From: a virus
Length of the DNA: 64,000 nt
Virus record (IMG/VR): IMGVR_UViG_3300035183_000841
Coordinates: 20,710-84,709 of that record
Direction: 5' to 3' (one strand)
In this document: piece after piece, positions 46,685 to 54,040 of the stretch
Layout of the letters: every line of letters begins with the position of its first letter
How positions within the stretch are numbered: position 1 is the stretch's first letter
The notes under the pieces: generated by a model
What the model was told of the DNA's origin: nothing
Seen by the model: the letters and a program-made list of their open reading frames with translations, nothing else
Databases searched by the model: none
Position numbers and translations under genes: made by a program

Positions 46685-47668
46685 ATGCTCTCATTGCTGG
46701 ATGAGCTAGGTATATCTGTTAAAGGAGAAACTTCTACGCATTTCATCGCTTATTGCCCGTTCCATAACAATACCGATACCCCGGCTTTCAACATCGACAA
46801 ACGTCTTGGGGTCTGGAGGTGCTGGAATCCAGATTGCGGATCGTCCGGGACATTGGTAGCGCTAATCATGCGTATCGTTGGAGGTTCTGAAGCCAAAGCA
46901 CGAAGGATGATTGTCCGGCATGCCAGAGGAAAGGTAAGGTCGGCACGACGGATTGAATCCGAGCCTGACGACCTCAGCACTGATTCGATAGATGAAGAAT
47001 CTCTACTGAAAAATCTCAGACGAGATATCTCGAACCTCACGTACCTCGTGGAGAGAGGGTTCACCGAGAAGACCATCCGCGACTTCGAGGCAGGCTGGGA
47101 CGGCGAAGCGATCTGTATGCCGGTGCGTGATGAACAAGGACGACTGCTCGGACTCACGCGGAGGATTGTGAGCGGGAACGGGCCGAAGTATAAAGACAAT
47201 GATTTACCGAAAAGTAGGACCTTGTTTAACATCGATAAAGTCATCGATTCTCGAGAGGTCGTAGTAGTTGAAGGGCCGTTCGATGCGATGAAGGTTCACC
47301 AGGCAGGGTTCCCGGTCGTTGCCACGATGATGGGCGGACTTTCTGAAAGGCAGAAACGGTTGCTACTTAAACACTTCGACACGATTGTCATATTCACCGA
47401 TAACGATGAGGCCGGACGTAGGCTAGGCAAGCTCGTAGAGGACTCCTGCGCAGGTAAACGCATATATTGGGTCCCTTACCTGTACCCCGTAAAGGACCCC
47501 GGCGAGATGGATGATGAACAGATACGCGACTGTATCTCGAAAAAAATTCCCGCCTTCCTACTCAGGATGGGTAGGTATGGTAAGATGGGGACAAATCCCG
47601 AAAGGAGTGATATTGGATATGTCGAAGGGCACATTGACAGGGCTAAAGGCTCTGAAGAAGCTAGCTGA
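46685..47668 (+). CDS. dnaG: DNA primase (Zn-binding domain plus TOPRIM)
   Basis: CPFH...C..DC, VVEGPFDA, FTDNDEAG, KDPGE; GAGG SD before ATG 46685. Confidence 0.9.
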   Translation: MLSLLDELGISVKGETSTHFIAYCPFHNNTDTPAFNIDKRLGVWRCWNPDCGSSGTLVALIMRIVGGSEAKARRMIVRHARGKVRSARRIESEPDDLSTDSIDEESLLKNLRRDISNLTYLVERGFTEKTIRDFEAGWDGEAICMPVRDEQGRLLGLTRRIVSGNGPKYKDNDLPKSRTLFNIDKVIDSREVVVVEGPFDAMKVHQAGFPVVATMMGGLSERQKRLLLKHFDTIVIFTDNDEAGRRLGKLVEDSCAGKRIYWVPYLYPVKDPGEMDDEQIRDCISKKIPAFLLRMGRYGKMGTNPERSDIGYVEGHIDRAKGSEEAS

Positions 47669-48233
47669 GACAGGCTCAGAGAGACAGGATTCCTTCCTGA
47701 AGCTCAAAGACGGACAGTCTGTAACGATAAGGTTCCTACAGGAACTAGATGAAAGTGGAAAGTATTACGATGAATCACGTGGGCTCGCTGTGACGGTGTT
47801 TGAGCATCTCGATCCCGACAACCCATCCATCCGTTTCCTTTGCACTGCAGAGGAAGAAGGCAAGTGCGTAGGCTGCGAGCGTGTTGTCGTCTCGAACAGG
47901 TGGAAGCGGCGTTCCAGGATATTCATCAATGCATGGGTGGAAGAACTCCAAGCCACGAGGATTGTTGCGAGCGGGTTTTCCCCTAAAGGTATCGGCGGAG
48001 CGCTCATCGAGTATGCAGAGGACTTCAAGACCCTCTGTGACCGGAACTATAAGCTTAAGCGGAACGGAGAGGGCTTGAAGACGACGTACACCCTCCTTCC
48101 CCGCGAGGTATCCCAGTTCGATGTGGCCTCCAAGCCAATCATCGATCTGTCGCAGTTCACCAAGTACCGCACTTATGACGAGTGCCTCGCTATGGTGCAG
48201 GGCCAGAAGCAAGGAGATTCCTCTGGTTGGTAA
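47619..48233 (+). CDS. Single-stranded DNA-binding protein (gp32-like)
   Basis: LKLKDGQSVTIRFL, C..CVGC, YKLKRNGEGLKTTYTL. Confidence 0.72.
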   Translation: MSKGTLTGLKALKKLAETGSERQDSFLKLKDGQSVTIRFLQELDESGKYYDESRGLAVTVFEHLDPDNPSIRFLCTAEEEGKCVGCERVVVSNRWKRRSRIFINAWVEELQATRIVASGFSPKGIGGALIEYAEDFKTLCDRNYKLKRNGEGLKTTYTLLPREVSQFDVASKPIIDLSQFTKYRTYDECLAMVQGQKQGDSSGW

Positions 48234-48796
48234 TCTGCGTCGATATCGACGGGGTACTTGGTGATTTAGCCACTCCAGTGGGGGGTGAGCTCCTGAAGGC
48301 CCATGGGGTTCACCTCCCACCGGAGATTTCGTGGGAGGACCTACGGGACTTCCTCGCATCGAACAACATCGGTCATAACTGGATCAGGAAGTTGTTATCT
48401 GATGAGTGGTTCTGGGCAAGGGTGCCCCCATTCACAGAAAATATCGAGGCGGTACAGGCGTGGATAGATGCTGGACATGATGTCCACATACTCACTTCGC
48501 GGCCGCAATCAAGCATGATTCCGACGAGAGCGTGGTTGGCCAAGAACGGGGTGATGACCACGAAGGTCGCCTTCTATCCAGCCATGAAGAAATACGAATA
48601 TATGCAGAAAGTAGAAGCGGATTTCATCGTGGAGGACCTTTTCTACGAGGCATATAAGTGCTCTGCTTTCGGGTTCAGGAGTTATGTCGTCAGAAGGCCA
48701 TACAACGTGGAATTCGAAGAACGTATAATCAATAAACTATGTTCATTCATAGACACTTTGTGGGACATAGACCTGAACGAGGTGCGATATGAGTGA
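48227..48796 (+). CDS. HAD 5'(3')-deoxyribonucleotidase-like protein
   Basis: CVDIDGVL, ILTSRP, K, IVED. Confidence 0.8.
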   Translation: MVICVDIDGVLGDLATPVGGELLKAHGVHLPPEISWEDLRDFLASNNIGHNWIRKLLSDEWFWARVPPFTENIEAVQAWIDAGHDVHILTSRPQSSMIPTRAWLAKNGVMTTKVAFYPAMKKYEYMQKVEADFIVEDLFYEAYKCSAFGFRSYVVRRPYNVEFEERIINKLCSFIDTLWDIDLNEVRYE

Positions 48797-49277
48797 TATC
48801 AACGAAGATCTCTATTATCTGGGTCTAGCGAAATACGTTTCGCAGAGGGGGACATGCCCGGCCAAAAAAGTTGGTGCTGTCTTGGTGGACAAGGCAAGGG
48901 GGGTCGTCCTATCTGTGGGGGCTAACGGCGCTCCCGAAGGAACTGCTTTATGCGGGGAAGAATGTGCCACTAGAGAGGTCGGCGAGAATTCGAAAGCCTG
49001 TAGGGCGATACATGCGGAAGTTATGGCTATCATCAATGCGGCCAGACTAGGTGTCTCCGTAGATGGTGCTTCAGTGTATGTGACTATATCTCCTTGCCAA
49101 TCATGTGCTAGGATACTTATCCAGTCAGGTATAAAGGAAGTTGTCGCATCTGCGCATTCACCATATACGAAGGCGCTCGACCTCCTTTCAGAAGCTGGAG
49201 TTAAGGTTCGTATCCTTTCTGGGGTCAGCGTGCCGAAGCTGCGGGTGATCCCCGTCACTCAAATAGTGGAAGAATGA
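48789..49277 (+). CDS. dCMP deaminase
   Basis: KVGAVLV, GANGAP, IHAEVMAI, SPCQSC. Confidence 0.9.
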   Translation: MSDINEDLYYLGLAKYVSQRGTCPAKKVGAVLVDKARGVVLSVGANGAPEGTALCGEECATREVGENSKACRAIHAEVMAIINAARLGVSVDGASVYVTISPCQSCARILIQSGIKEVVASAHSPYTKALDLLSEAGVKVRILSGVSVPKLRVIPVTQIVEE

Positions 49278-49450
49278 TAAAAACAGTTCCATACGTAGAG
49301 GCAGTGAAGATAAAGCCACCGATATGGACGAGTGACGAGAGGTGGTGCTCCTGTCTCGTATGCGGCCGATTCACCGGGATTGCGATGGTGAAGCTGTGCG
49401 GCCGGATAGATTGCCAGAACATCTATTGGGAGAAGGAATCAGATGAGTGA
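49274..49450 (+). CDS. Small Cys-rich protein
   Basis: ATGA-coupled; CLVCG, CGRIDC. Confidence 0.45.
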   Translation: MIKTVPYVEAVKIKPPIWTSDERWCSCLVCGRFTGIAMVKLCGRIDCQNIYWEKESDE

Positions 49451-50732
49451 TTTCGTCCATCTGCACGTTCACACCATGGGGTCGTTGCTCGATGGCTTCG
49501 CAACGCCAGAAGAGGTCGCCGCACGTGCCAATACACTAGAACAGCCAGCAGTCGCCATCACGGATCATGGATCGTTGGCTTGCACTGTAAAGTTCTATGA
49601 GGAGTGCCGTAAAAACGGTGTCAAGCCGATCATAGGTGTCGAGGCGTATCTCGCCGATGACATGTCTTCGCGCAACAAAGAAGATGCCATCTACCATATC
49701 GGCTTTTTAGCGAAGAACAACGAGGGACTCCAGAAACTTTTTCGCATATCTGAGGCAGCATGGAACATTGGATTCTACAAGAAACCTCGTGTTGACTTGG
49801 ATTTCTTGTCATCACTCTCTTCAGGCAAAGAATCAGACTTGGTGGCTCTAACCGGATGCGTGGATGGCATTTTGAGTCGATCTCTTGCAGGAGATACGCC
49901 ATATACCCCACAGGATGTGATCGAGAAACTATCCTTATTCGAGCATCTATTCGTGGAGGTACAGCCGTGGAACCCCCCCGAATTGAACGAAGCATTACTT
50001 GCAGTAGCGGATTCTAATGGGCTGCAAGTAGTTGTTACGGCTGATGCACACTACGCTGACAAAGATGACAAGGTGGCTGCTGAGGTTGGGTTGCTCCTCT
50101 CTCAGGTGTCTTCTTTCAAGGATAGTGATAGGGAAAGAGCGATGGGGTTATTCACGGAGTCTCGCAGGTACGACCTTATGGAGAGGATAAACTTCTTGTG
50201 GCCCAATCGCAGGTTGCGGTTCGATAAATATGACAACTACCTGTTGTCTAGGACAGAGATCGAAAAATTCATGGTCGGTATGGGCATCGACAGGACGGAT
50301 ATCTACGACAATACCGTTGCGATAGCCGATCTCTGTGATGTTGAACTCGCCCTGGGCGGGAACAATCTGCCGCGATTCTCGAAGATGACCGACTCTGCTG
50401 AGTTCCTGAAAGAGGTTGCGTGGGAACGATTCGAGAAGTTGGGACTTGGTGAAGAATACGTGTCAAGGTTGGAAGATGAGCTGGACATCGTTATCAAATC
50501 CGGATTCGCAGACTATTTCTTAATCATCTGGGATATGGTGCATGCGAGTAAGACGAACGGCATCATGGTTGGGCCTGGACGCGGTTCTGTCGGCGGCTCA
50601 CTTCTCGCATATGTCCTAGGCATCACCGAGGTCGATCCTATAAAGTTCAATCTGATCTTCTGGAGGTTTCTGAATCTTGAAATCCAATATGACCCGAAAT
50701 TTAGAGAGATTAAGCTTTCTCGAACTGCTTGA
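49443..50732 (+). CDS. dnaE: DNA polymerase III alpha, N-terminal piece (PHP domain and start of palm)
   Basis: FVHLHVHT, AITDHG, TADAHY, GPGRGSVGGSLLAYVLGIT, RFLN, then stop. Confidence 0.92.
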   Translation: MSDFVHLHVHTMGSLLDGFATPEEVAARANTLEQPAVAITDHGSLACTVKFYEECRKNGVKPIIGVEAYLADDMSSRNKEDAIYHIGFLAKNNEGLQKLFRISEAAWNIGFYKKPRVDLDFLSSLSSGKESDLVALTGCVDGILSRSLAGDTPYTPQDVIEKLSLFEHLFVEVQPWNPPELNEALLAVADSNGLQVVVTADAHYADKDDKVAAEVGLLLSQVSSFKDSDRERAMGLFTESRRYDLMERINFLWPNRRLRFDKYDNYLLSRTEIEKFMVGMGIDRTDIYDNTVAIADLCDVELALGGNNLPRFSKMTDSAEFLKEVAWERFEKLGLGEEYVSRLEDELDIVIKSGFADYFLIIWDMVHASKTNGIMVGPGRGSVGGSLLAYVLGITEVDPIKFNLIFWRFLNLEIQYDPKFREIKLSRTA

Positions 50733-53043
50733 CCTGGTTAAGAAGTCAGAAAGAACGGTGCTTGACCCGAAATGGGTCGAGGATGAGTTGCTCGCAATAC
50801 GGGTTCTCGGCGGAGCAGAGGCGATGTTGCGATTGCTGCGGTCTGGGAAGAAATACACGAACGACTCAGGATCGTCCGTCGCTTATCTCATCGGGATAAC
50901 CGACTACGCACCGACCGGGCCAGCGGCGATTATCAACCAGGGGAGGGTCGAGCCTCCAGATATCGACCTAGACTTCGAAGATGCTAGACGTGATGAAGTT
51001 AAAGAATATCTCCGGCGTCGATGGAAGAACGTAACGAACATATCGGTATTTACGAAGTTCTCGTCGAGGAACCTCGTTAGGGATATCTCCAGGGCATTCG
51101 CCGTTCCGATTGATGATGTTAACAGGGTATGCAAGCAGTTCGAGGATATCGATACGTTCCTCTATTCTCACGATACGAAGTGGTTCAGAGATAAATACAG
51201 CGAGGTTGTCCATCTCGTTAAACGATTCGAGGGTAGATGGAGGCAGAGCGGCGTCCATGCAGCAGGAGTCGTGGTGGCCGGTAAAATGCTGACCGATATC
51301 CTGCCTTTGGAGTCTCGAGCCCAGCATGGACGTGAGCGAGTCCCTTGCGCTGCATACGATATGGAGGATTGCGCCAAGGTCGGTCTCATCAAGATGGATA
51401 TCCTCAGCTTGGAGATCCTTACCTGTATAAGGGAATGCCTCGACAAGATTAAGGAACGGCACGGCATAGAGGTAAACCTTCAGGACATACCTCTTGATGA
51501 CGAGACGGTGTTCAGGGAGCTATCGGAAGGTCATACCGTAGGAGTATTCCAAGCTGAAGCCGCCCCTCTTACGAAACTCATGAAAGAGATGGGCGTCGAC
51601 TCGTTCGCTGATATCGTTCTAGCGACTTCACTGGTAAGGCCAGGGGCACTCCTCACGGTGGGGGATTCGTGCATAAGGAGGAAGAAGGGGCTCGAGGAGA
51701 TTACCGAGATACACCCGATACTGACAGAGATCACGAAAGATACGTACAACCTCTTCATATTCCAGGAGCAACTCATAGAAGCACTCGTTAAGGTGGGCGG
51801 GTTCTCCTGGTCGGATGCAGATAAAGTTAGGAAGATCATCGGCAAGAAACAAGACCCAGAAGAATTCAAGAAATACGAAAAGAGGTGGCTTGAATCTGCC
51901 TCGAAGACACTCGGAAAGACTACATCTAAGAAACTATGGTCTGACTTTGAGAAGTTCTCAGGCTACGCCTTCAATAAAGCACATGCTACCGCATATTCGT
52001 TGATAACGTATCGCTGCATGTGGTTGAAAGCGCACTTCCCAGTGGAATATATGTATGCATTGTTCAAACATGAAACGAAGAGGGAAAAACTCACCACTTA
52101 TTACATGGAGGTGAAGCGTCTCGGAATAGAACTGTTGCCGCCAGACGTGAATAAGTCGGACACGTCCTTTTCCCTGGAAGGAGATTCCATACGTTATGGA
52201 CTGATGAACATCAAAGGGGTCGGCGCTGTCGCTGCAGAAGAGATCATCGCTAATCGACCTTATCAGTCTGTCGATGACTTCATCGCAAAGGTCGCCAGGA
52301 GGAAATGCACATCTGCAGTTGTCGCTCGTCTTCAAGAGGCTGGAGCGTTCTCGGAGATAGGGCATCCTGGTGATGAGCGTAAGGCGTATGAACTGCTCGG
52401 CATCGTAGACCTAGATGAGCTAGACATCCCCTTCGAAACCGTCGGTATCGGTGATATCGATGGGGCTGGGATTGTGAAAGCGATCGTCAAAGAAGTGAAG
52501 AAGTATTCGGACAACACCAGGATAACCATAGAAGATCAGTCTGGGTCGATGACGGTATATGTCGACTCCGGTGTCGTCGATGAGGATGCGGTCATCATCG
52601 GCTTGGTTTGCGGAAACAGGCTGGCCGGCTTCACTTATCTTGCTGACTACCAACAGAGGAAACGGGCCGGGCTGCCCCTCACTCCATTCGAACGGCTCTG
52701 TGAGGGAGATATCTTCTCAGAGGACGAGAAAGAGTTGTATAATCACGGTATCGGAAAACTCACCGACGCAAAGGCACTGGTCGCACCCCTGTCGGTGAGG
52801 ACATTCAAAACCAGGAAGGGTGAGTACATGGCCAGGGCCATAGTGACCGATGGGGAAAACGTAGAAGATATAGTGATATTTCCAAGCCAATACAAGAAGG
52901 TAGCCGCTTGGCTACAGCCGTATACGAAGATATGCATCAAGACAACCAGAACGGATAGCGGAGATCTCACCCTTGCCGATGATGGCCTCATCCTGGCCTC
53001 CAGGATTCTAGAGCTGAAGAGGGGGCAGGATGGGCGAACTTAG
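50677..53043 (+). CDS. dnaE: DNA polymerase III alpha, C-terminal piece (catalytic palm, fingers, HhH, OB)
   Basis: PDIDLDF, GVHAAGVV, KMDIL, GVFQ, YAFNKAHA, LPPDVNKS; GGAGG SD 10 nt before TTG 50677. Confidence 0.92.
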   Translation: MKSNMTRNLERLSFLELLDLVKKSERTVLDPKWVEDELLAIRVLGGAEAMLRLLRSGKKYTNDSGSSVAYLIGITDYAPTGPAAIINQGRVEPPDIDLDFEDARRDEVKEYLRRRWKNVTNISVFTKFSSRNLVRDISRAFAVPIDDVNRVCKQFEDIDTFLYSHDTKWFRDKYSEVVHLVKRFEGRWRQSGVHAAGVVVAGKMLTDILPLESRAQHGRERVPCAAYDMEDCAKVGLIKMDILSLEILTCIRECLDKIKERHGIEVNLQDIPLDDETVFRELSEGHTVGVFQAEAAPLTKLMKEMGVDSFADIVLATSLVRPGALLTVGDSCIRRKKGLEEITEIHPILTEITKDTYNLFIFQEQLIEALVKVGGFSWSDADKVRKIIGKKQDPEEFKKYEKRWLESASKTLGKTTSKKLWSDFEKFSGYAFNKAHATAYSLITYRCMWLKAHFPVEYMYALFKHETKREKLTTYYMEVKRLGIELLPPDVNKSDTSFSLEGDSIRYGLMNIKGVGAVAAEEIIANRPYQSVDDFIAKVARRKCTSAVVARLQEAGAFSEIGHPGDERKAYELLGIVDLDELDIPFETVGIGDIDGAGIVKAIVKEVKKYSDNTRITIEDQSGSMTVYVDSGVVDEDAVIIGLVCGNRLAGFTYLADYQQRKRAGLPLTPFERLCEGDIFSEDEKELYNHGIGKLTDAKALVAPLSVRTFKTRKGEYMARAIVTDGENVEDIVIFPSQYKKVAAWLQPYTKICIKTTRTDSGDLTLADDGLILASRILELKRGQDGRT

Positions 53044-54040
53044 CTTGGAAGAACTCATCAACCAGGTCAACGAGATAAACAGGAAGTTCGGCCAGAAAGT
53101 CATCGGTACCGGATCTGAATACAGCATACCAGCAAGAGTGCCAACGGGTTCGCTATCCTTGGACCATGCGTTGGGTGGCGGGTGGCCGGCTGGTCGATTC
53201 GTAATGCTTTGGGGGAATAGGTCTAGCGGGAAAAGCACACTCTGTTTGCGCAGCATAGCTGAAGCCCAGAGGGCCGGGATGAGGCGATGCCTCTATATCG
53301 ATGCAGAGAAAGGGTATGACGCCACTTGGGCGGAGAAGAATGGTGTCGATACAGAGTCGTTGTTGGTGATGAGGAAGAACAATCTCGACGACATCCTGTC
53401 CGCCACGAAAGATCTACTACAGAACAACATGGTCGATGTCATAGCACTGGATTCGATAAATACCATAAATTCACCGAAGTTCTTCGAAGAAGAGAACAAC
53501 TCTATAGGCCAGAACGCACGGGCTGTTGGTGAACTCCTTTCGAAGTGGAACGCCTGGAACCAGGATGCGCTGATAATCCTCATATCCCAGGCCAGGAACA
53601 AATTCGCCGGAACGATGGTGTTCGCTGATCATGGAGGAGGGCTTGCGGCAGAGCACTTCCCATCCGTCATCGTGAAACTATTCTCAGGTAAAGACAAAAC
53701 GTCATTCCTATACGAGAAGAAGAATGTCGGGGGCAGGGTCATAGAAGTTAAGATAGGCCAGATGATCAAATGGGAGATAACGAAGTCGAAGGTATCGAAC
53801 CCATTCTTGTCTGGACAGTTCCCTCTGTATGCAGATGGTAGACGCGATGACTCTATCGAACTCATCGACTTGGCCTTGAAATGCGGTGTGGTTGAAAGGG
53901 CTGGTAGTTGGTTCAAGATCGGTGACGAGAAGTTCCATGGCGAAAACGATCTGAGGAAGTTCATACAGGAGAACCAATCAGTATCTGAAGAGATCAAAAA
54001 GAAGGTGTTCGATGTTGAAGTTCCTCAAGAAGAAGATTGA
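53030..54040 (+). CDS. recA: RecA-like recombinase
   Basis: PTGSLSLDHALGGG, GNRSSGKST, YIDAE, IALDS, ISQ, GSWF. Confidence 0.92.
   Translation: MGELSLEELINQVNEINRKFGQKVIGTGSEYSIPARVPTGSLSLDHALGGGWPAGRFVMLWGNRSSGKSTLCLRSIAEAQRAGMRRCLYIDAEKGYDATWAEKNGVDTESLLVMRKNNLDDILSATKDLLQNNMVDVIALDSINTINSPKFFEEENNSIGQNARAVGELLSKWNAWNQDALIILISQARNKFAGTMVFADHGGGLAAEHFPSVIVKLFSGKDKTSFLYEKKNVGGRVIEVKIGQMIKWEITKSKVSNPFLSGQFPLYADGRRDDSIELIDLALKCGVVERAGSWFKIGDEKFHGENDLRKFIQENQSVSEEIKKKVFDVEVPQEED

What the first reader, a model, noticed from the sequence alone, without database searches (positions are those of the whole stretch)
49443..53043. DnaE split into two genes without an intein, with a duplicated degenerate palm segment
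Seen: piece 1 runs through LEDELDIV...GPGRGSVGGSLLAYVLGITEVDP...RFLN and stops 18 codons later. Piece 2 (+1 frame, own GGAGG SD, 56-nt overlap) does not resume at that point. It first re-encodes a diverged copy of the same segment (VEDELLAI...NDSGSSVAYLIGITDYAP...IINQGRVEP) before the catalytic PDIDLD. No intein motifs are present at either end. Established: in DnaE, GRGS...RFLN and PDIDxD are contiguous parts of one active site, and the well-known split DnaE is rejoined by a split intein. Inference: fission by partial duplication, giving a two-subunit C-family polymerase in which the intact GRGS motif and the catalytic aspartates lie on different chains (domain-swapped heterodimer). Alternatives are a recoding or bypass event of about 260 nt, or a stand-alone PHP proofreader. 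The strong divergence between the two copies argues against an assembly artefact. This is the strongest candidate for an undescribed system in the window.
Basis: partly seen in the sequence, partly recalled or inferred. Interest (0 to 1): 0.82.

Follow-up and report, generated by a model that had tools for sequence, protein, structure and literature searches.

The report
Phage DnaE polymerase split by cassette
A hot-spring phage encodes its replicative DNA polymerase as two adjacent genes, cut inside the catalytic centre by a small inserted cassette that related phages share and that in some of them still carries a homing endonuclease gene.

Summary
Piece 1 (49443-50732) holds the PHP domain and the first palm segment with an intact GPGRGS motif. 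Piece 2 (50677-53043, +1 frame, 56-nt overlap, own GGAGG) starts with a diverged copy of that palm segment (hhalign 90-94%, E about 1e-6 to 1e-7). It then carries the catalytic PDIDLD strand, fingers, HhH and OB domains. The split is not an artefact: two IMG/VR relatives and two further assemblies have the same frames without indels, and dN/dS is 0.02-0.13 throughout.

Compared with unsplit relatives, the split form has a 268-nt insert at one fixed site (RFLN | R-x-[DE]-x-PDID). This insert is shared by about 45 protein clusters. On the polymerase tree it is scattered: one clade is rejected (AU p 8e-71) and at least 12 changes are needed. In three IMG/VR contigs an HNH endonuclease gene sits inside the insert, and one of these differs from an 83%-identical unsplit phage only by the 859-nt cassette.

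My reading is a two-subunit DnaE made by a mobile, endonuclease-associated cassette that brings its own assembly pieces. The window holds an endonuclease-free relic. The closest precedent is phage Aeh1 nrdA/mobE. I rate it a new variant of a known kind.

The parts
49443..50732 (+). Piece 1 gene (dnaE N-part, 429 aa): PHP domain, first palm segment and a short new tail.
   Evidence: ORF; Pfam; PDB hits; a family of 408-438 aa homologues.
49458..49964 (+). PHP domain core (aa 6-174). D41, H42, E67, H85, C139, D201 and H203 are invariant in the family.
   Evidence: Pfam PF02811 E 4e-35; invariant columns. That these residues are the PHP metal ligands is recalled, not tested.
50406..50681 (+). Genuine first palm segment (aa 322-413), running through ...FWRFLNLE.
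   Evidence: Pfam DNA_pol3_alpha positions 3-97. The local profile alignment to unsplit DnaE ends here.
50577..50588 (+). GRGS (GS motif of the Pol-beta-like palm), aa 379-382.
   Evidence: Sequence. P378, G379, R380, G381, S382, G385 and S386 are invariant in 24 of 24 aligned homologues.
50662..50666 (+). GGAGG Shine-Dalgarno for piece 2, embedded in the W-R codons of FWRFLN.
   Evidence: Codons 404-408, which hold it, are unchanged in L003 and L004.
50676..50943 (+). The 268-nt insert (cassette) relative to unsplit DnaE. It lies between the N of RFLN and the R of R-V-E-P-PDID. Unsplit relatives have about 2 codons here.
   Evidence: Junction comparison with unsplit relatives.
50682..50732 (+). 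New C-terminal tail of piece 1 (aa 414-429, IQYDPKFREIKLSRTA) plus its stop codon.
   Evidence: The Y-[DN]-P-K-F-x-x-[IV] tail is conserved in the family. pLDDT is below 50 when piece 1 is folded alone. It lies at the interface in the complex model.
50677..53043 (+). Piece 2 gene (dnaE C-part, 788 aa from TTG; 784 aa from ATG 50689).
50701..50925 (+). Pseudo-palm module (aa 9-83). It is a diverged copy of piece 1 aa 322-403 that lacks the strand and GRGS loop, and has K-Y-x-N in their place.
   Evidence: hhalign; conservation; helical with pLDDT 85-92; dN/dS 0.03-0.13.
50956..50973 (+). Catalytic strand PDIDLD (D95, D97; D99 also invariant).
   Evidence: pLDDT is below 50 when piece 2 is folded alone. 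In the complex model it touches piece 1 residues 374-377.
51397..51399 (+). D241, aligned with the third catalytic aspartate of Taq Pol III alpha (position 618 by the alignment).
   Evidence: Alignment; invariant. Its identity as a catalytic residue is recalled.
51418..51906 (+). Finger domain (aa 248-410).
   Evidence: Pfam PF17657 E 1.7e-40.
52123..52365 (+). Helix-hairpin-helix domain (aa 483-563).
   Evidence: Pfam PF14579 E 7e-23.
52435..53013 (+). Two OB-like folds (aa 587-656 and 696-779).
   Evidence: VIA-align matches to OB and SSB folds, Z 8-9.4, rmsd 1.6-2.8 over 71-82 residues. Weak Pfam OB hit.

Best explanation
The phage makes its C-family replicative polymerase from two polypeptides. 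Piece 1 supplies the PHP (proofreading-type) domain and the first palm segment with the GS motif. Piece 2 supplies the three catalytic carboxylates, fingers, HhH and OB domains.

The gene was cut at one fixed site, between RFLN and the catalytic strand, by a cassette. The cassette adds a short C-terminal tail to piece 1 and an about 85-residue helical 'pseudo-palm' to the N-terminus of piece 2. The pseudo-palm is an old, diverged copy of the polymerase's own first palm segment.

In some relatives the cassette also holds an HNH homing endonuclease gene. I infer that this endonuclease spread the cassette among phage dnaE genes and was later lost here, leaving a fixed split. The two chains reassemble non-covalently so that the GS loop of piece 1 sits against the catalytic strand of piece 2. 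The tail and the pseudo-palm act as assembly pieces.

Shown: the anatomy, the duplication, purifying selection, the site-specific insert, its scatter on the tree, and the HNH association in three contigs. Inferred: assembly, the role of the tail and pseudo-palm, and the endonuclease as the spreading agent.
For: 1. Not an artefact. L003 and L004 (IMG/VR) have identical ORF lengths, 184 of 3601 differing bases each and no indel. Contigs of two further runs span the stretch with 184 and 207 substitutions, 0 gaps and no joints.

2. Both pieces are selected. dN/dS is 0.04-0.06 for piece 1, 0.03-0.13 for the pseudo-palm and 0.02-0.05 for the rest.

3. The family is real. 24 aligned piece-1 homologues (36-61% identity) all keep GPGRGS, and 22 of 24 end in the short tail. 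All 15 aligned piece-2 homologues carry the N-terminal module. Pairs share contig lengths. An exhaustive profile search of 1.84 billion representatives gave 48 hits. In 45 of them the match starts within the first 44 residues; one of those, P0295, is spurious.

4. The insert is site-specific. Bacterial DnaE and 79 of 80 IMG/VR relatives run straight from GRGS to PDxDxD. The split forms all break at RF[LI][ND] | R-x-[DE]-x-PD[IV]D.

5. Endonuclease association. In L177/L206, L128/L207 and L208 a 192-193 aa HNH ORF (Pfam E 1e-10 to 1e-12) lies between the pieces. All 3 close HNH relatives in IMG/VR sit there, and the 4 distant ones do not.

6. Presence/absence polymorphism. L128 and unsplit L068 are 83-84% identical in their flanks and differ by an 859-nt cassette that replaces 34 nt.

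7. Scatter on the tree. On the C-part tree the split state needs at least 7 changes (17 split, 33 full). One clade is rejected, p-AU 7.7e-71. With 11 bacterial DnaE added, at least 12 changes are needed.

8. Assembly model. ipSAE is 0.90 against a best control of 0.00 (3 controls). That mark was reached by 58 of 80 solved complexes and 2 of 110 mismatched pairs. The runs agree in at least 94% of contacts and the partner pLDDT is 90. The pass may reflect likeness to solved single-chain DnaE. Piece 1 residues 372-385 and 402-425 touch piece 2 residues 90-101. Pseudo-palm residues 36-44, 58-66 and 83-87 are also at the interface. The tail (410-429) and the catalytic strand (87-104) have pLDDT below 50 when each chain is folded alone.
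Against: - Only 3 of the 7 split loci whose DNA I could read carry the HNH (5 distinct lineages, 2 with HNH).
- Identity of the pseudo-palm tracks identity of the host C-part (means 44% and 49% over 153 pairs; N exceeds C in 28%). There is therefore no sign of recent jumps between distant lineages.
- There is no divergence gradient next to the L128 cassette (76-86% per 150 nt against 63-91% further away), so the direction (gain or loss) is open.
- Two proteins (P0282, P0288) carry the pseudo-palm in-frame after a genuine GS palm in one chain. The duplication may therefore predate any endonuclease, and splitting is not required for the module.
- The trees are quick LG+G4 searches with some long branches.
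- The complex model gives no coordinates, so where the pseudo-palm sits is unknown.
- No biochemical or expression evidence exists.
Confidence: 0.6

Rival explanations
1. Duplication-first fission. A tandem partial duplication of the first palm segment arose once inside a continuous dnaE. The gene later broke in the linker. The HNH gene is a late, incidental insertion into that permissive linker in one sub-lineage. The scatter on the tree comes from recombination and allele replacement among phages, not from endonuclease-driven spread. The enzyme still works as two subunits.
For: - Fused forms P0282 and P0288 hold a genuine and a pseudo palm in one ORF.
- The HNH is seen in only 2 of 5 lineages with readable DNA.
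- Pseudo-palm divergence tracks host divergence.
- The deep branches of the sampled tree are all split or fused forms.
Against: - The cassette sits at the same codon boundary in DnaE backgrounds that are interleaved with bacterial DnaE, which is hard to obtain without a targeted mechanism.
- L128 and L068 differ by the whole cassette including the HNH, as one unit.
- All 3 close HNH relatives in IMG/VR are at this site.
- Unsplit relatives have the canonical bacterial junction, so they are not imprecise deletions.
Confidence: 0.25
2. The two proteins do not assemble. Piece 2 is a self-sufficient polymerase in which the pseudo-palm takes the structural place of the first palm segment. Piece 1 is a stand-alone PHP nuclease or pyrophosphatase.
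For: - Piece 2 contains a complete, if degenerate, Pfam palm. In some relatives Pfam reads it from profile position 28 or 56.
- Piece 1 folds confidently on its own up to residue 400.
Against: - GPGRGS and the following helix are the most conserved part of piece 1 (24 of 24), which a free PHP enzyme would not need.
- The pseudo-palm has lost the strand and GS loop in every member seen.
- The catalytic strand is disordered in piece 2 folded alone.
- The complex model puts the piece 1 GS loop on the catalytic strand.
- The two genes are adjacent, in the same order, in 7 of 7 loci.
Confidence: 0.08
3. Recoding. A programmed +1 frameshift in the 56-nt overlap, or a long bypass, gives one polypeptide.
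For: Both endonuclease-free arrangements with readable DNA (the window and L163) put piece 2 in the +1 frame with an overlap of 56 and 26 nt.
Against: - In L177, L128 and L208 an entire HNH gene separates the pieces.
- Piece 2 has its own SD and start.
- A TGA in the piece 2 frame lies two codons before its start.
- The segment that a bypass would skip is conserved as protein.
- There is no Rfam element.
- I saw no known slippery motif in the overlap (read by eye).
Confidence: 0.04
4. Assembly error or decaying pseudogene.
For: None found.
Against: The same frames occur in independent assemblies without indels. dN/dS is 0.02-0.13. The family is deep and conserved.
Confidence: 0.01

Closest known systems
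Aeromonas phage Aeh1 nrdA-a / mobE / nrdA-b (Crona et al. 2010, PMC3045599; abstract and Discussion read)
   Same: An essential phage replication-related gene is cut inside its active-site region into two adjacent genes, in association with a free-standing HNH-family homing endonuclease. There is no RNA or protein splicing. New C- and N-terminal tails are present that unsplit homologues lack, and in Aeh1 these are needed for activity.
   Different: - The target here is the C-family polymerase, not RNR.
- One 'tail' is an about 85-residue folded module derived from the target gene itself.
- The arrangement is shared by about 45 protein clusters in many DnaE lineages, not by one phage.
- The window copy has no endonuclease.
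- Nothing has been tested biochemically here.
'Fractured genes' with split inteins and a free-standing endonuclease, including three DnaE loci (Dassa et al. 2009, PMC2677866; passages read)
   Same: Metagenomic, phage-like DnaE genes are broken into two neighbouring genes with an endonuclease gene between them.
   Different: Those are rejoined by split inteins. Here no intein family is hit, the piece 1 tail is 16 residues long, and the piece 2 N-terminus is homologous to the palm, not to an intein. Their insertion points are in supplements I could not open, so identity of site is not excluded.
Cyanobacterial split DnaE with the naturally split DnaE intein (as described in PMC2677866)
   Same: DnaE is encoded by two genes.
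   Different: Those halves are in separate loci at a different site and are covalently rejoined by trans-splicing. Here the genes are adjacent and overlapping, with no intein, and non-covalent assembly is inferred.
Split family-B polymerases: gp43 of some T4-like phages and PolB of Methanothermobacter (as cited in PMC2677866, passage read)
   Same: A replicative polymerase made from two separately translated chains without splicing. In one gp43 case a GIY-YIG endonuclease lies in the gap.
   Different: The polymerase family and fold differ, and no duplicated segment of the host gene is reported there (from the passage only).
Canonical single-chain DnaE / Pol III alpha (PDB 2hpi, 3e0d, 2hnh, 4jom)
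   Same: All domains are present in the same order: PHP, palm, fingers, HhH, OB. Structural match is Z 29.6, rmsd 13.7, 455 residues aligned to 4jom from model residue 97 on.
   Different: There are two chains and an extra pseudo-palm module. The GS motif and the catalytic aspartates lie on different chains.

Membership tests
C-family DNA polymerase (DnaE / Pol III alpha) | PHP domain, palm (DNA_pol3_alpha), finger and HhH domains in order. | tested here: met
   Pfam; PDB sequence hits E 4e-58 and 3e-85; fold match Z 24-30.
C-family DNA polymerase (DnaE / Pol III alpha) | GS motif plus three catalytic carboxylates. | tested here: met
   GRGS 379-382 in piece 1; D95, D97 and D241 in piece 2, all invariant in the family. 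They lie on two chains. Their catalytic role is recalled from the literature.
C-family DNA polymerase (DnaE / Pol III alpha) | Single polypeptide. | tested here: not met
   Two ORFs in three near relatives and in the wider family.
Split-intein DnaE / fractured genes | Intein N- and C-halves flanking the break (HINT blocks, Cys1, terminal Asn followed by Cys, Ser or Thr). | tested here: not met
   No intein or HINT family at E <= 0.1 in either piece. The tail is only 16 residues. The N-terminus is homologous to the palm. Inteins do occur in relatives, but at the FNK|SHA site.
Endonuclease-fragmented gene with assembly tails (Aeh1 NrdA type) | Essential gene cut into two adjacent ORFs where relatives are continuous. 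| tested here: met
Endonuclease-fragmented gene with assembly tails (Aeh1 NrdA type) | Free-standing homing endonuclease gene between the halves. | tested here: not met
   Absent in the window, L003, L004 and L163. Present in the relatives L177/L206, L128/L207 and L208.
Endonuclease-fragmented gene with assembly tails (Aeh1 NrdA type) | New terminal sequences at the break that unsplit homologues lack. | tested here: met
   Tail aa 414-429 and N-terminal aa 1-89.
Endonuclease-fragmented gene with assembly tails (Aeh1 NrdA type) | Tails needed for assembly or activity. | not testable with these tools
   Only a model is available. Both the tail and the N-terminal module lie at the predicted interface.
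Programmed translational bypass or frameshift | Non-coding gap, or a slippery site with a stimulator, giving a single product. | tested here: not met
   The gap encodes a conserved protein segment. A whole gene lies in the gap in relatives.
Group I / II intron | Ribozyme core in the insert. | tested here: inconclusive
   No Rfam match at E <= 1 in 49300-53200. Coding conservation argues against an intron, but the Rfam blank alone is not proof.

The most novel reading that the evidence does not exclude
The cassette is a self-contained 'cut-and-mend' mobile element. It is a homing endonuclease that invades the catalytic core of an essential replicative polymerase in many phage lineages. It can do so because it carries, as cargo, a domesticated copy of the target's own palm segment plus a short tail. 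Together these form a new inter-subunit clasp, so that neither RNA splicing nor protein splicing is needed. Once the endonuclease is lost the split cannot revert, and the phage is locked into a two-subunit polymerase.
Probability: 0.35. Interest if true: 0.8.

Novelty: new variant of a known kind. Interest (0 to 1): 0.68.

Why it matters
1. It would be the first intein-free, two-subunit C-family replicative polymerase that I could find. Six full-text searches found no description. The break lies between the nucleotide-binding GS motif and the metal-binding aspartates, which gives a natural test of how far the Pol III alpha palm can be taken apart.

2. It extends the single Aeh1 NrdA precedent, in which a mobile element supplies the antidote to the fragmentation it causes, to a widespread family. 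It also shows a different kind of antidote: a duplicated piece of the target.

3. The pseudo-palm and tail may be a portable, splice-free way to reassemble a split polymerase.

4. For annotation, such gene pairs in phage metagenomes should not be called pseudogenes or frameshifts.

Tried and rejected
**BLASTP between the pieces.** Not significant; profiles were needed.

**Tail as a degenerate copy of the catalytic strand.** The hhalign local alignment stops at RFLNxE, and forced alignments have near-zero confidence. I dropped this as a claim, and the 'reciprocal swap' geometry stays speculation.

**Position of the pseudo-palm.**
- Foldseek gives no ranges.
- VIA-align aligns the piece 2 model only from residue 94-104 on, so the N-terminal module was not placed.
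- The complex tool returns contact lists but no coordinates.

**GenBank phages.** tblastn with the 92-residue N-terminus found nothing at E <= 1e-3. The best isolates are Streptomyces phages with continuous DnaE at 36-39% identity. PHROGs has no family for the N-terminal module.

**IMG/VR scan with the piece 1 alignment.** It returned only unsplit genes: 79 of 80 continuous and 1 cut by the locus end. The motif scan found 5 split loci among 119, 3 of them new lineages.

**Bacterial genomes.** The best 80 loci all match from query residue 32-65 on, so none shows the module.

**Co-conversion tracts next to the L128 cassette.** None seen.

**Own record.** There is one distant HNH ORF outside the window (32% over the core). 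It is not the cassette endonuclease.

**RNA evidence.** No RNA holder was listed. All runs laid were contigs, so nothing can be said on transcripts, ends or expression.

**Earlier notes of this scan.** None concerned this locus.

**Rows left out.**
- From the 120 rows, I aligned 24, chosen for length 408-438 aa.
- From the 120 rows, I aligned the 15 PHP-less rows of 752-807 aa. P0171, P0172 and P0214 (715-725 aa) were not examined.
- From the tree, I dropped 4 long-branch split rows and 2 redundant bacterial rows.

**Papers.** PMC12926913 (passages read) does not mention split DnaE. PMC11210271 (passages read) is irrelevant. The supplements of PMC2677866, which list the DnaE break points, were closed and could bear on whether this site was seen before.

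Full report
**What is there.** The window is part of an 84.7-kb IMG/VR virus record, estimated 64% complete. Two ORFs cover the finding: 49443-50732 (429 aa) and 50677-53043 (788 aa from TTG; an ATG follows at 50689). The second is in the +1 frame and overlaps the first by 56 nt. GGAGG lies at 50662-50666, inside the Trp-Arg codons of FWRFLN. A TGA in the second frame lies two codons before its start.

Pfam reads the domains as follows:
- Piece 1: PHP plus positions 3-97 of the 260-position palm profile.
- Piece 2: positions 68-259, finger, HhH and a weak OB.

Against Taq Pol III alpha, piece 1 covers residues 7-457 and piece 2 begins at 427. The neighbouring genes are a dCMP deaminase and a RecA. 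These two ORFs are the only C-family polymerase matches on the record.

**Is the duplication real?** Pairwise BLASTP is not significant, but profiles are.
- The first 92 columns of a 15-sequence piece 2 alignment match piece 1 residues 322-403 with 90-94% probability (E 1.3e-6 to 1.3e-7, 28% identity).
- An 18-sequence N-terminal profile searched against 86 unsplit DnaE (1152 columns) hits only that palm segment (91.7%, E 7.6e-7).
- The copy lacks about 11 residues that hold the strand and GRGS loop, and has a conserved K-Y-x-N instead.
- It is not decaying. Ten residues among its first 92 are invariant across 15 sequences of 37-61% overall identity, and dN/dS among three near relatives is 0.03-0.13.
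- AlphaFold models it as four helices with pLDDT 85-92.
- The piece 1 tail, by contrast, shows no detectable similarity to the catalytic strand.

**Not an artefact or a pseudogene.** Two IMG/VR contigs from other samples carry the same two ORFs with identical lengths, 184 of 3601 differing bases each and no indel. Synonymous to non-synonymous codon changes are 55:14 and 60:8 in piece 1, and 92:18 and 91:20 in piece 2. Logan contigs of two more runs, labelled hot-spring metagenomes, span the whole stretch with 184 and 207 substitutions, no gaps and no joints. The likely source run is a microbial mat. These assemblies may overlap with the IMG/VR samples, so I count them as agreement, not as four independent replicates.

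**A family, and an insert at a fixed site.**
- Piece 1 has many homologues of 408-438 aa. In the 24 I aligned, GPGRGS..GS is invariant, and 22 end 13-25 residues after RF[LI]x with an aromatic-x-x-x-Phe tail.
- Piece 2 has PHP-less homologues of 752-807 aa that all carry the N-terminal module. Eight piece 1/piece 2 pairs share a contig length.
- A profile of the module, scored against 1.84 billion representative proteins, found 48 proteins at E <= 1e-3. In 45 the match starts within the first 44 residues. Two hits (P0293, P0295) are not DnaE.
- Two others (P0282, 1149 aa; P0288, 1675 aa) carry the module internally, after a genuine GS palm, in one reading frame.
- Unsplit relatives run straight from RF[LI]N-PE-R-x-D-x-PDID: 79 of 80 IMG/VR loci, with the 80th cut by the locus end, and 13 of 13 bacterial loci inspected.
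- The split forms therefore have an insert at one codon boundary. In the window this is 50676-50943, 268 nt.

**The endonuclease.** A motif scan of IMG/VR found three further split lineages among 119 loci.
- L163 is arranged like the window, with a 26-nt overlap in the +1 frame.
- In L177 and L128 a 192-193 aa ORF with an HNH domain (Pfam E 1e-10 to 1e-12) lies between the tail and the module.
- All three close relatives of this HNH in IMG/VR (L206, L207, L208) sit between dnaE pieces. The four distant ones do not.
- L128 and the unsplit phage L068 are 83-84% identical over 3.9 kb and 1.2 kb of flank. They differ by an 859-nt block (tail, HNH, 80 codons of module) that replaces 34 nt..LLFFRFI|NPDRD|DFPDID.. 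against ..LLFFRFI|SGDQ..AI** HNH M..HGRE|DFPDID...

**Scatter on the polymerase tree.** The trees used the part from the catalytic strand onwards.
- With 17 split and 33 unsplit forms, at least 7 changes of state are forced by well-supported branches. The tree with all split forms together is rejected: 1500 log-likelihood units, p-AU 7.7e-71.
- With 21 more split forms, 2 fused forms and 11 bacterial DnaE, at least 12 changes are needed, and split forms interleave with bacterial lineages.
- The modules share motifs and the same deletion that the genuine palm lacks, so they have one origin. The cassette, or the gene segment carrying it, has therefore moved between dnaE backgrounds.

Caveats on this point:
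- These are quick LG+G4 trees with some long branches.
- Module identity tracks host identity (means 44% and 49%), so the spread looks old.
- No co-conversion gradient flanks the L128 cassette.
- The direction of each change is open.

**How it most likely works.** Piece 1 keeps every PHP residue that is invariant in the family, together with the GS motif. Piece 2 keeps D95, D97 and D241. D241 aligns with position 618 of Taq; its catalytic role is recalled, not tested.

The complex model scores 0.90 against 0.00 for the best of three controls. That mark was reached by 58 of 80 solved complexes and 2 of 110 mismatched pairs. The runs agree in at least 94% of contacts and the partner pLDDT is 90. 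As these are halves of a protein with solved single-chain relatives, the pass may show likeness only.

In the model, the piece 1 GS loop (372-385) and its last helix plus tail (402-425) touch the piece 2 catalytic strand (90-101). Module residues 36-44, 58-66 and 83-87 are also at the interface. Folded alone, the tail (410-429) and the catalytic strand (87-104) are the low-confidence parts. This fits mutual completion.

Separate translation is supported by the SD-like sequences before each piece 2 start and by the relatives in which a whole gene separates the pieces.

**Origin.** I favour an endonuclease-associated cassette whose endonuclease was lost here. Duplication first, with the HNH arriving later, remains a serious rival because of the fused forms. 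The unsplit relatives P0131-P0135 nest among split forms and have a linker 6 residues longer than canonical (RFLN-VDESGKSG-RIDPPDID). This may be a scar of re-fusion, but that is inference only.

**Comparison with what is known.** The closest case is Aeh1 nrdA split by mobE. There, tails that arrived with the insertion are essential, and the authors predicted similar tails elsewhere (PMC3045599, abstract and Discussion read). Fractured DnaE genes with split inteins and endonucleases, the cyanobacterial split DnaE intein, and split family-B polymerases are related but differ in mechanism (PMC2677866, passages read). Six full-text searches found no description of an intein-free split DnaE.

**Verdict.** This is a new variant of a known kind, of good interest.

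Noticed in passing
Relatives: P0255 (piece 2 of the L163 phage), P0260, P0290, P0282: Inteins are inserted at the FNK|SHA finger motif of the same split polymerases. The P0255 intein contains an HNH-like motif (read by eye in the sequence). This dnaE lineage is therefore hit by several kinds of mobile element, at sites other than the split.
   Followed up: partly
Relatives P0282 (1149 aa) and P0288 (1675 aa): Single-chain DnaE proteins with the genuine GS palm followed in-frame by the pseudo-palm module. They are either ancestors of the split or re-fusions of it. Their DNA could not be read.
   Followed up: partly
Relatives P0131-P0135: Unsplit DnaE nested among split forms, with a non-canonical linker 6 residues longer than usual (VDESGKSG) at the cassette site. 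This may be a re-fusion scar. P0134 also has about 250 extra residues before the GS motif.
   Followed up: no
Trees: Split forms tend to have longer terminal branches than their unsplit sisters (L177 0.61-0.73 against 0.15-0.18; L128 0.074-0.086 against 0.030-0.035; P0137 0.32 against 0.20-0.23). This may mean faster evolution after the cut.
   Followed up: no
G000:C1:17536-17745 (outside the window, upstream): A 109-aa open frame with a distant HNH core (32% over 69 residues to the cassette endonuclease).
   Followed up: no
window 48789-49277 and 53030-54040: A dCMP deaminase lies directly upstream and a RecA-family recombinase directly downstream. The RecA start overlaps the end of piece 2 by 14 nt. 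The same 162-aa and 336-aa ORFs flank the pair in L003 and L004.
   Followed up: partly
window 47511-48233 and L128 3299-3949 (minus strand): A 216-240 aa protein with no Pfam hit (the window copy was scanned) lies upstream of the dnaE pair in the window, and a similar-looking one (C-x-G-C-E motif, read by eye) in the distant split phage L128.
   Followed up: no
Runs X1-X7: The stretch is held almost fully only by two microbial-mat runs. The four runs laid include three hot-spring runs (X3, X4, X6), which hold about 94-95% identical relatives. No RNA run was listed.
   Followed up: partly
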